Assembly: GCA_934169725.1 (NCBI GenBank)
Contig: CAKPOF010000003.1
Coordinates: 48,460 to 112,459, forward strand
Source of the DNA: an uncultured Clostridia bacterium
Lineage (GTDB): Bacteria > Bacillota > Clostridia > TANB77 > CAG-508
Length of the DNA stretch: 64,000 nt
Direction: 5' to 3'
The notes under the pieces: model-generated
The model's database searches: none
What the model was told of the DNA's origin: nothing
What the model saw: the letters and a program-made list of their open reading frames with translations, nothing else
Position numbers and translations under genes: made by a program
Shown here: positions 3,631 through 3,860 of the stretch, one piece after another
How the letters are laid out: each line of letters opens with the position of its first letter
Numbering within the stretch: position 1 is the stretch's first letter

Positions 3631-3860
3631 AATACTATTCACAATTTACAGATATGTTAAATGTATAAAAAATTAATAATATATTTTTTTTAATACCTTG
3701 TGTGTCGCAATCTGCATATTGAAATTGGACTAATATGTATATTGCTCCAAATCGCACCCACTAGCGTTCGTTTGGTCGCTTACGCGGTATTTTCAAAAAT
3801 ATATTATTAATTTTTATAAAGCTATATAAGTTATCTGTGAATAGTGAATAATATTATAAA
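3631..3860. repeat. MITE-like intergenic repeat, full-length copy A. Nested inverted repeats enclose a ~105-bp core.
   Basis: Outer inverted repeat ctattcacaatttacagata / tatctgtgaatagtgaata. Inner 21-bp perfect TIR aaaaattaataatatatttttt (3667-3688) / aaaaatatattattaattttt (3795-3815). The core atacc-ttgtgtgtcgcaa...cgttcgtttggtcgcttacgcggtatt is about 80% identical to the copy at 63609-63823. Confidence 0.7.

What the first reader, a model, noticed from the sequence alone, without database searches (positions are those of the whole stretch)
3631..3860. Unannotated MITE-like element with nested perfect inverted repeats: two full copies plus two solo ends
After recA (3631-3860) and after the MacB-like gene (63609-63823) lie two copies that are about 80% identical. 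Each has a ~105-bp core (atacc-ttg(t)gtgtcgcaa...ttgctccaa...cgttcgtttggtcgcttacgcggtatt). A perfect 17-21-bp TIR (AAATT(T)AATAATATATT...) encloses the core, and an outer 15-19-bp inverted repeat (GTTACAATTCACAGT / ACTGTGAATTGTAAC in copy B) encloses that.

The first 28 nt of the inner element (TTAATAAtATATTgTTTTTTTATACCTT) also occur alone after fbp (19952-19979) and after spoVS (23055-23082). All four copies are intergenic and lie just downstream of a gene's terminator.

This could be a non-autonomous transposable element, a structured sRNA or attenuator with a long closing helix, or a recombination site. I cannot match it to a known RNA family.
Basis: seen in the sequence. Interest (0 to 1): 0.6.

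Follow-up and report, generated by a model that had tools for sequence, protein, structure and literature searches.

The report
Foldback MITE with conserved structured core
The two repeats are copies of a roughly 210-bp non-autonomous transposon (MITE) that is scattered through the genomes of uncultured gut Clostridia; it is an ordinary kind of element, except that its central 95 nt form a folded module conserved far better than the transposon ends.

Summary
Copy A (3638-3848) and copy B (63609-63821) are 84% identical, and each is a nested palindrome around a ~95-nt core. Two 30-nt fragments of the left arm lie at 19949-19979 and 23052-23082.

The family is large. Nearly all are uncultured gut Clostridia, with several copies per genome and none inside a long predicted ORF. 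Phage, plasmid and viral collections gave nothing, and Rfam has no match.

Outer terminal inverted repeats (GTTACAATTCACAG and variants) are flanked by 8-bp target-site duplications. With TIRs, small size, no ORF and dispersal, the element meets the working definition of a MITE. No transposase partner was found.

The core is not ordinary. It has three helices around near-invariant junction sequences, with strong covariation (93% of cells paired, 17 of 22 pairs changed on both sides). It stays conserved while arms and TIRs diverge. Its orientation is biased about 3:1 towards that of the flanking genes.

Copy B's interior is inverted in place in 3 of 10 strain contigs.

I conclude this is a new MITE family carrying a strand-specific structured module whose function is unproven.

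The parts
3638..3848 (+). Copy A, the whole MITE (211 bp)
   Evidence: TIR TTCACAATTTAC / TTCACTATTCAC (10 of 12) with flanking 8-mers taatacta / taatatta. This was found on the identical strain copy L117 and mapped onto the window sequence.
3630..3637 (.). Copy A, left target-site duplication (taatacta)
   Evidence: It matches the right copy at 7 of 8 positions.
3849..3856 (.). Copy A, right target-site duplication (taatatta)
3668..3697 (+). Copy A, left inner arm plus the 5' strand of P1 (ATACC, 3693-3697)
   Evidence: 30-nt inverted repeat, 90% complementary to 3786-3815.
3693..3790 (+). Copy A, conserved core. P1 is 3693-3697 / 3786-3790, P2 hairpin 3707-3745, P3 hairpin 3756-3771, and the near-invariant box TCGCTTACGCGG 3776-3787.
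   Evidence: nhmmer hit at 3687-3792, E = 3.7e-24. Helices supported by covariation. RNA fold -45.1 kcal/mol, z = -7.0.
3786..3815 (+). Copy A, the 3' strand of P1 plus the right inner arm
63609..63821 (+). Copy B, the whole MITE (213 bp), bounded by a perfect 15-nt TIR: GTTACAATTCACAGT at 63609-63623 and ACTGTGAATTGTAAC at 63807-63821.
   Evidence: The flanking 8-mers ataaatag (63601-63608) and acaaataa (63822-63829) match at 6 of 8. The whole element folds at -52.3 kcal/mol as RNA, z = -8.0. The interior is inverted in strain contigs L253, L255 and L259.
63667..63761 (+). Copy B, conserved core. P1 is 63667-63671 / 63757-63761, P2 63680-63716, P3 63727-63742, and the box TCGCTTACGCGG 63747-63758.
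   Evidence: nhmmer hit at 63661-63766, E = 9.5e-25. Covariation.
63644..63666 (+). Copy B, left inner arm
63762..63786 (+). Copy B, right inner arm
19949..19979 (+). Remnant: the left inner arm plus ATACCTT, broken at the 5' foot of the core. It lies after fbp.
   Evidence: It is the left-arm type (TTTTTTTATACC, not TTTTGAAATACC). It is fixed in all strain contigs read.
23052..23082 (+). Remnant: the left inner arm plus ATACCTTG. It lies after spoVS.
   Evidence: It is fixed in all strain contigs read.

Best explanation
**What it is.** It is a family of miniature inverted-repeat transposable elements (MITEs), about 160-310 bp long and 211-213 bp in this window. It spreads through the intergenic DNA of AT-rich, uncultured gut Clostridia.

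**Anatomy (shown).** From the outside in:
- an 8-bp target-site duplication;
- a 12-15-bp terminal inverted repeat beginning GTTAC or GTAAC;
- a ~20-nt non-complementary spacer (absent in some subfamilies);
- a copy-specific inner inverted repeat of 20 to over 60 nt;
- a ~95-nt core of three helices (P1-P3) around near-invariant junction sequences and the box TCGCTTACGCGG.

**Mobility (inferred).** Copies were inserted by a transposase supplied in trans that makes 8-bp staggered cuts. That enzyme was not found.

**After insertion (shown).** Copies decay by internal deletion; the two 'solo ends' and the strain L116 allele are examples. The interior can also flip in place between the inverted repeats.

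**The core (inferred).** It is a selected, strand-specific folded module, not filler. I favour an RNA made when the element is read through from the upstream gene, with the long arms forming a double-stranded stalk that could be cut by RNase III to release it. The same fold in single-stranded DNA on the lagging-strand template is the alternative.
For: **Copy number and range.** The 19-mer has at least 115 genome hits, one of which (a Nitrosomonas contig) is a chance match. The 5' anchor pattern has at least 120 metagenome hits. None of 106 copies analysed lies inside a long predicted ORF.

**TIR plus 8-bp TSD.** Ten elements of 206-254 bp have TSDs with at most 1 mismatch. In the larger set, 29 of 185 pass the test against 1 of 185 in a shifted control. 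About 22 of the 29 are non-palindromic and 12 are perfect 8 of 8.

**Arms.** They are complementary within each copy but differ between copies: median local score 26, against 10 for mismatched partners.

**Core helices covary.**
- On 141 distinct copies, 93.1% of cells are paired, 17 of 22 pairs change on both sides, and 0 of 500 shuffles reach the observed score. Slid controls reach at most 40% paired.
- P1 switches between ATACC/GGTAT, GTACC/GGTAC, GCACC/GGTGC, ACACC/GGTGT and GAACC/GGTTC.
- P3 keeps a TC/TC mismatch between covarying pairs.
- Insertions are tolerated only in the P2 and P3 loops and as an extra hairpin.

**Strand specificity.**
- Between tandem genes, 44 copies share the genes' orientation and 15 oppose it. 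A larger set gives 55 versus 19.
- G.T pairs outnumber A.C pairs 38 to 18 in P2 and 84 to 59 in the arms.
- More than half of co-oriented copies start within about 20 nt of the upstream stop codon.
- Copy B lies upstream of the gene's terminator-like hairpin.

**Decay and inversion.**
Against: - No transposase with matching ends was found in 1.9 Mb of flanking DNA.
- No clean empty site was found. Every shorter allele is a truncated copy, so mobility rests on TSDs and dispersal.
- Only about 12-16% of copies still show a recognisable TSD.
- Covariation in P1 and the arms could come from DNA-level homogenisation of a palindrome rather than from selection on a fold.
- The alignment anchors fixed some columns: the 19-mer in the genome set and TTGCTCC in the metagenome set.
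- No expression data exist.
- Copy A appears to sit after the recA hairpin and T run, where read-through would be weak.
- The two copies that lie between lagging-strand genes follow the locus-wide gene direction rather than their neighbours (n = 2). This favours a replication-linked (DNA) reading over a transcription-linked one.
Confidence: 0.75

Rival explanations
1. The element is a mobile invertible switch (an inverton). A site-specific invertase flips the segment between the inverted repeats, and the core carries an orientation-dependent signal, such as a promoter or terminator, for neighbouring genes.
For: - Copy B's interior is inverted between the 15-bp outer repeats in 3 of 10 strain contigs with identical flanks.
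- The same kind of inversion separates L037 and L069.
- A third case is L168, L195 and L227 versus L189.
- 15 bp is short for homologous recombination.
- Orientation relative to genes is non-random.
Against: - The inverted and non-inverted haplotypes of copy B differ by several substitutions, and three samples share the inverted form. This looks like one old event rather than ongoing switching.
- No recombinase gene lies next to any copy examined.
- No promoter with conserved spacing is present. The hexamer scan gives 5 hits against 4.3 expected at copy A, and 8 against 3.6 expected at copy B, where the one hit using conserved core sequence loses its spacing in the TGTG variants.
- The 8-bp TSDs point to transposition as the origin.
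- The third case has arms of 60 nt or more, so the assembler may have chosen the orientation arbitrarily.
Confidence: 0.1
2. The core is a single-stranded-DNA signal. Hairpins form on the lagging-strand template and are recognised by an HUH-type or other structure-specific enzyme, as at IS200/IS605 ends or REP/RAYT sites. The palindromic flanks are target or by-product sequence.
For: - The hairpins carry a conserved internal mismatch (TC/TC) and covarying stems.
- A small GC hairpin has TTAC in its loop.
- Orientation bias is compatible with replication direction, and 2 of 2 informative cases follow it.
- G.T mismatches exceed A.C mismatches on one strand.
- The breakpoint ATACCTT| recurs in three remnants.
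Against: - IS200/IS605-type elements have neither terminal inverted repeats nor target duplications; this family has both.
- The two hairpins do not resemble each other, as left-end and right-end hairpins of IS200/IS605 elements do.
- No Y1 transposase was seen near any copy.
- The DNA fold is less extreme than the RNA fold, z = -5.4 versus -8.0.
Confidence: 0.1
3. It is a stationary small-RNA gene or cis-regulatory RNA family, not a mobile element. The repeats exist because the RNA needs a long closing helix.
For: - The fold is strong and the helices covary.
- Peripheral insertions are tolerated.
- Copies tend to share the orientation of the upstream gene.
Against: - There are dozens of copies per genome next to unrelated genes.
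- 8-bp direct repeats flank the outer inverted repeat.
- The outer repeat is conserved as sequence, not just as pairing.
- Truncated and interrupted copies occur.
- There is no conserved promoter.
Confidence: 0.04
4. It is a retron-like non-coding RNA, with flanking a1/a2 repeats closing several hairpins and serving as the template for a reverse transcriptase acting in trans.
For: - The architecture resembles one: long terminal inverted repeats close a multi-hairpin domain.
- A conserved G follows the closing helix.
Against: - No reverse-transcriptase gene lies next to any copy, whereas retron RNAs sit beside their RT.
- The family is high-copy and has TSDs.
- It matches no Rfam family at all.
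Confidence: 0.02

Closest known systems
Bacterial MITEs in general (Correia/CREE of Neisseria, RUP of S. pneumoniae, ERIC of enterobacteria), as reviewed in PMC3184786
   Same: Small size, no transposase gene, terminal inverted repeats flanked by direct target duplications, many intergenic copies, and folding into a long hairpin.
   Different: - No sequence similarity to any of them.
- The target duplication is 8 bp; ERIC-type repeats have a TA motif at both termini, and Correia and RUP duplicate TA from my own knowledge.
- The palindromes are nested, with outer TIR, spacer and a long copy-specific inner repeat.
- The centre is much better conserved between species than the ends.
bcr1 repeats of the Bacillus cereus group (about 155 bp; described in PMC3184786)
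   Same: A Firmicute interspersed repeat flanked by short direct repeats, in which compensatory base changes maintain a cruciform-like structure. bcr1 is transcribed, which suggests action at the RNA level.
   Different: - bcr1 has 5-bp direct repeats and is confined to one species group.
- No sequence similarity.
- Here transcription is untested.
- Here the core junctions are near-invariant across many species-level genomes.
IS66 family insertion sequences (terminal repeats of 20-30 bp starting GTAAGCG, and 8-bp direct repeats; PMC11946415)
   Same: - An 8-bp target duplication.
- Termini begin GTTAC, or GTAAC in some copies, which partly resembles GTAA....
- The complement of the invariant core box contains GTAAGCG.
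   Different: - GTAAGCG lies in the middle of the element, not at its ends.
- The termini do not read GTAAGCG.
- No IS66-type transposase was found.
- This is a lead for the partner enzyme, not a classification.
Invertons (invertible DNA segments flanked by inverted repeats); comparison from my own knowledge of the class
   Same: A segment bounded by short inverted repeats is found in both orientations among strains of one species.
   Different: - No adjacent invertase.
- No recognisable internal promoter.
- The element is high-copy and has target duplications.
- The two orientations look like old haplotypes.

Membership tests
MITE | Terminal inverted repeats at both ends | tested here: met
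   GTTACAATTCACAG(T) is a perfect 15 nt in copy B. Related TIRs GTTACTGGTCAGCC, GTTACAGTTCAGAC and GATACAATTCAC occur in other copies.
MITE | Direct target-site duplication flanking the TIRs | tested here: met
   The duplication is 8 bp. 29 of 185 copies have a TIR of at least 10 of 12 plus a TSD with at most 1 mismatch, against 1 of 185 in a shifted control. Examples are AGTCGAAA, CACTGTTG, AAAAAGTA and CCAATTTA. Copy A matches at 7 of 8 and copy B at 6 of 8.
MITE | Small size with no transposase gene | tested here: met
   Elements with TIR and TSD are 158-254 bp. Loop lengths vary out of frame, so there is no conserved ORF.
MITE | Many dispersed copies in unrelated genomic contexts | tested here: met
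Neighbouring genes are unrelated housekeeping genes.
MITE | Presence/absence polymorphism with a clean empty site | tested here: inconclusive
   The flank-joining search found only truncated alleles (L116, L021, L025, L113) and no precise empty site. Both window copies are fixed in the strain contigs read.
MITE | A cognate autonomous element whose transposase gene is bounded by the same TIRs | tested here: inconclusive
   None was found in 1.9 Mb of held sequence. Whole genomes could not be scanned.
IS66-family derivative | Terminal repeat starting GTAAGCG, with 8-bp direct repeats | tested here: not met
   The 8-bp repeats are present, but the termini read GTTAC, GTAAC or GATAC followed by AATTCA or TGGTCA. 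GTAAGCG occurs only inside the core, on the minus strand.
IS200/IS605-type PATE or REP | No TIR and no TSD; subterminal hairpins; insertion 3' of a fixed tetra- or pentanucleotide | tested here: not met
   TIRs and 8-bp TSDs are present, and the TSD sequences differ between copies.
Any Rfam 15 RNA family (including tRNA, tmRNA, T-box, 6S, Y RNA and ribozymes) | A covariance-model match | tested here: not met
   There was no hit at gathering score in the window. No relevant hit appeared at E up to 10 on copy A or at E up to 5 on 15 loci holding variant copies. ARAGORN calls nothing at copy A or at the two remnants.
Inverton | The same locus found in both orientations within a species | tested here: met
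   Copy B is plus in L252, L254, L256-258, L260 and L261, and minus in L253, L255 and L259, with identical flanks.
Inverton | A dedicated invertase and an orientation-dependent promoter or other signal | tested here: inconclusive
   There is no recombinase among the called neighbours. The promoter scan gives 5 hits against 4.3 expected at copy A and 8 against 3.6 expected at copy B; no hit keeps its spacing across family variants. A genome-wide search for invertases was not possible.
Retron msr-msd | An adjacent reverse-transcriptase gene | tested here: not met
   The neighbours of both window copies are RecA and a HAD hydrolase, and an ABC transporter and DAGK.

The most novel reading that the evidence does not exclude
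The conserved 95-nt core may be a functional structured RNA that has no promoter of its own and travels on a MITE. In this reading it is transcribed by read-through from whichever host gene lies upstream. The long perfect arms would act as an RNase III processing stalk that releases it. Selection on this RNA (as a ribozyme, a protein-binding RNA, or a factor in the element's own transposition) would explain three things: the core outlasting its transposon ends across species, the tolerance of peripheral hairpin insertions, and the co-orientation with host transcription despite in-place flipping.
Probability: 0.3. Interest if true: 0.7.

Novelty: new member of a known kind. Interest (0 to 1): 0.45.

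Why it matters
**Annotation.** The family is an unannotated repeat present in many uncultured human and animal gut Clostridia. It can break assemblies, mimic regulatory hairpins and seed inversions, so naming it helps annotation and strain comparison.

**Biology.** The core behaves like a selected folded molecule rather than transposon filler. If it is an RNA, it would be a structured non-coding RNA class spread by a DNA transposon and expressed from host transcripts. It is also directly testable with existing gut metatranscriptomes.

**Strain markers.** The in-place inversion between 15-bp repeats is a natural marker of strain lineages, and possibly a switch.

Tried and rejected
1. **Rfam.** I scanned the whole window at gathering score, copy A at E up to 10, and 15 loci holding variant copies at E up to 5. 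Nothing relevant appeared.
2. **Phage, plasmid and viral collections.** There were no matches, so a phage or plasmid origin is unsupported.
3. **A long form with cargo.** I looked for a version with a gene inside the P2 loop. The apparently split copies in MAG CABPZP01 carry only a ~95-nt AT-rich insertion. The L154 interruption encodes a protein with a prepilin-type N-terminal signal and a sulfatase-modifying-enzyme-like region, judged by eye, not a transposase.
4. **Autonomous partner.** I searched for TIR-motif pairs, generic IR+TSD pairs, GTAA/GTTA-ended pairs and multi-copy ORF clusters. The only candidate (L076) contains a membrane-transporter-like ORF, judged by eye.
5. **Solo-left ends as empty target sites.** This idea would imply a guide-like right arm. 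I rejected it because L116 keeps the left TIR and spacer and lacks the right TSD plus 26 nt of flank, so it is a deletion.
6. **Ancient orthologous insertion downstream of a nifS-like gene.** Three distant species share this position, but that many coincidences is expected by chance among 235 sampled loci, and the TIR subfamilies differ.
7. **Extra tertiary pairs.** Mutual information found only the helices.
8. **CCAA/TTGG pairing at the base of P3.** This is not supported: TTGG varies to TTGA and TTAA without compensation.
9. **Literature.** Searches by sequence and by keywords found no description of this family.

Full report
**1.

- The two long copies align at 84% column identity.
- A shared 26-mer occurs exactly twice in the window, where none is expected.
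- The left-arm motif recurs at 3673, 23055 and 63647 (0.01 expected). A fourth copy, with a one-base indel, lies at 19949.
- The repeat finder returns the inner inverted repeats: 3668-3697 / 3786-3815 at 90%, and 63628-63664 / 63765-63801 at 78%. It also returns the outer repeat of copy B, which is a perfect 15-mer.

**2. This is a large family, not a local curiosity**

- The 19-mer TTGGTCGCTTACGCGGTAT has at least 115 exact occurrences in one-genome-per-species contigs. Nearly all hits are MAGs labelled uncultured Clostridia, Clostridium sp. or Eubacteriales, from human, rabbit, chicken and mouse gut, often with several hits per MAG. One hit, in a Nitrosomonas contig, is a chance match.
- Annotated phages, plasmids and IMG/VR gave nothing.
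- The window's own organism is an uncultured human-gut bacterium. Its exact RecA protein occurs on 87 contigs.

**3. Anatomy**

Lining up about 200 copies gives a constant plan. From the outside in:
- an 8-bp direct repeat;
- a 12-15-nt terminal inverted repeat;
- a ~20-nt spacer that is not complementary between the two sides (absent in some subfamilies);
- an inner inverted repeat of 20 to over 60 nt;
- a T run on the left and a (T/G/A)C-interrupted A run on the right, which form a small asymmetric internal loop;
- the core.

The terminal repeat reads GTTACAATTCACAG in the window's subfamily. Elsewhere it reads GATACAATTCAC, GTTACTGGTCAGCC or GTTACAGTTCAGAC.

The inner repeat differs completely between genomes but is complementary within each copy. 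The median local score is 26, against 10 when a left arm is paired with another copy's right arm.

Some subfamilies carry 2-4 subterminal copies of a ~22-nt motif in each arm.

The core reads: ATACC (P1) - TTG(N1-3)TGTC - GCAAyC...GrTTGC (P2) - TCCA(N1-3)TCGC - AC-TC-GC...GC-TC-GT (P3) - TTrrTCGCTTACGCGG - TAT (P1').

**4. It is a transposable element**

- Ten elements of 206-254 bp have matching TIRs and 8-bp flanking repeats with at most one mismatch.
- In a larger scan, 29 of 185 copies pass the same test, against 1 of 185 when the right-hand 8-mer is taken 9 nt further out.
- Seven of the 29 are palindromic 8-mers and could simply be an extension of the inverted repeat. About 22 are genuine direct repeats and 12 are perfect.
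- The duplicated 8-mers differ between copies and are AT-rich.
- Copy A is 3638-3848 with taatacta / taatatta. Copy B is 63609-63821 with ataaatag / acaaataa.

TIRs, TSDs, small size, no ORF and dispersal are the defining features of a MITE as summarised in PMC3184786.

Two expected features are missing.
- No autonomous partner turned up in 1.9 Mb of held sequence.
- No clean empty site turned up.

The 8-bp duplication implies a transposase that makes 8-bp staggered cuts; this is an inference. IS66-family elements make 8-bp repeats and start GTAAGCG (PMC11946415). The MITE termini only partly resemble that. The complement of the invariant core box does contain GTAAGCG, but in the middle of the element. 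I treat this as a lead, not a classification.

**5. The 'solo ends' are remnants**

One strain contig with an identical RecA (L116) has the recA-site copy reduced. It keeps the left TIR, spacer, left arm and ATACCTT. It has lost the core, the right arm, the right TIR, the right TSD and 26 nt beyond.

The two short fragments in the window consist of the left arm plus ATACCTT(G), and they break at the same point. They are fixed in all strain contigs read.

Other genomes hold truncated copies with other breakpoints. Why three independent remnants share one breakpoint is unexplained.

**6. The core is a selected fold**

On 141 distinct copies:
- 93.1% of cells form standard pairs;
- 17 of 22 pairs show changes on both sides;
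- 308 cells are compensatory, against 91 in shuffles;
- none of 500 shuffles reaches the observed score;
- sliding one strand by 1-3 columns drops pairing to 21-40%.

P1 alone shows five pair combinations. P3 keeps a symmetric TC/TC mismatch between pairs that switch C-G to T-A (40 of 141) and G-C to A-T (30 of 141). Simple palindrome homogenisation would erase such a mismatch.

Length variation is confined to the P2 loop (up to about 100 nt), the P3 loop and an optional extra hairpin after P3. The junction strands are near-invariant, and the box TCGCTTACGCGG hardly varies even in the set not selected for it. Mutual information finds no further pairs.

The fold is far more stable than shuffles, at z = -7 to -8 as RNA and -5.4 as DNA.

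No Rfam family, tRNA or tmRNA model matches.

Caveats:
- Pairing in P1 and the arms could be kept by DNA-level processes.
- The search anchors fixed some columns.
- Sequences are related by descent, so the shuffle counts are not probabilities.

**7. One strand matters**

- Between tandem genes the core points the same way as the genes in 44 cases and the opposite way in 15. A larger de-duplicated set gives 55 versus 19.
- G.T mismatches exceed A.C mismatches on the plus strand: 38 versus 18 in P2, and 84 versus 59 in the arms.
- More than half of co-oriented copies begin within about 20 nt of the upstream stop codon, leaving no room for a terminator.
- Copy B lies between the stop codon and the terminator-like hairpin of the ABC-transporter gene, so it should be part of that mRNA.

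These facts fit an RNA made by read-through. They fit equally a fold in the lagging-strand template, because most genes here point with replication. The only two informative cases, elements between lagging-strand genes, follow the locus majority rather than their neighbours. That is too few to decide.

**8. The element flips in place**

- At copy B, seven strain contigs have the window's orientation. Three (L253, L255, L259) have the whole interior reversed, spacers included, between the 15-bp outer repeats. Their flanks are identical.
- The repeat is shorter than any assembly k-mer, and three independent samples share the same variant bases, so this is not an assembly artefact.
- The same kind of inversion separates L037 and L069 at an orthologous site.
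- Inner-arm inversions are seen between L003 and L024.
- A further case has arms of 60 nt or more and could be an assembly ambiguity.

Because orientation can change after insertion, the 3:1 bias is more likely maintained by selection than set at insertion. This is an inference.

**9. Best reading**

This is a new MITE family with a foldback architecture. Its central module is a strand-specific structured element.

I favour RNA, with the arms acting as a double-stranded processing stalk. I put only about 0.3-0.4 on that part, against about 0.85-0.9 on the MITE identity.

The closest described analogue is bcr1 of the Bacillus cereus group. It is a transcribed repeat flanked by short direct repeats, with compensatory changes that preserve structure (PMC3184786). 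There is no sequence relationship, and the duplication length differs.

Literature searches by sequence and by keywords found no description of this family. ISfinder could not be consulted.

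Noticed in passing
window 24524-26011: tRNA-Leu (anticodon taa) at 24524-24611 is followed by a phage-type integrase gene on the minus strand (24779-26011; Phage_integrase Pfam hits on the identical strain gene). This suggests an integrated element 3' of the tRNA. 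The next ~7 kb has few long ORFs.
   Followed up: partly
window 61080-63576: The MacB-like ABC transporter ORF has its Walker-A region (GCGKTTLLN...) upstream of the first possible start codon. Gene callers split the gene into 55-aa and 801-aa products in all 10 strain contigs. This could be a conserved frameshift or stop, or an unusual start.
   Followed up: partly
L252:9366-9600, about 1.2 kb beyond the window end: A third full copy of the element lies after the DAGK gene of the same species. It is present in plus orientation in all 10 strain contigs, with different arms (GTTATATCATTTAATATTATATTG).
   Followed up: partly
L126:3960-4674: In a related species (RecA 95% identical), one strain carries two extra small ORFs (90 and 150 aa, no Pfam hit) between recA and rimP. 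Five other contigs lack them.
   Followed up: no
L122:608-640 versus L123:520-532: Strains of the related species differ by a 29-bp insert, TATTATTCAAACTGTGAATTGTAAGAAAG. It is a lone outer TIR of the element family, so it is either a footprint or an extreme truncation.
   Followed up: partly
L154:7247-8735 versus L169:2266-2362: One element is cut in its P2 loop. It is followed by about 1.46 kb encoding a 492-aa protein with a prepilin-type N-terminal signal and a sulfatase-modifying-enzyme-like C-terminal region (judged by eye). The otherwise 99%-identical contig has the intact element.
   Followed up: partly
L004:1167-1476 and L168:4970-5240: Some subfamilies have arms built of 2-4 tandem ~22-nt motifs: GGGGTCGGTCCC(T)n, or GTTCCGGGTTTrrATGGCAAT. 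They are arranged as inverted arrays on both sides, reminiscent of multiple subterminal transposase-binding sites.
   Followed up: partly
L075:6454-7729: In another species (RecA 88% identical), an element of a different subfamily also lies just downstream of recA, but in the opposite orientation. It is cut by the contig end.
   Followed up: no
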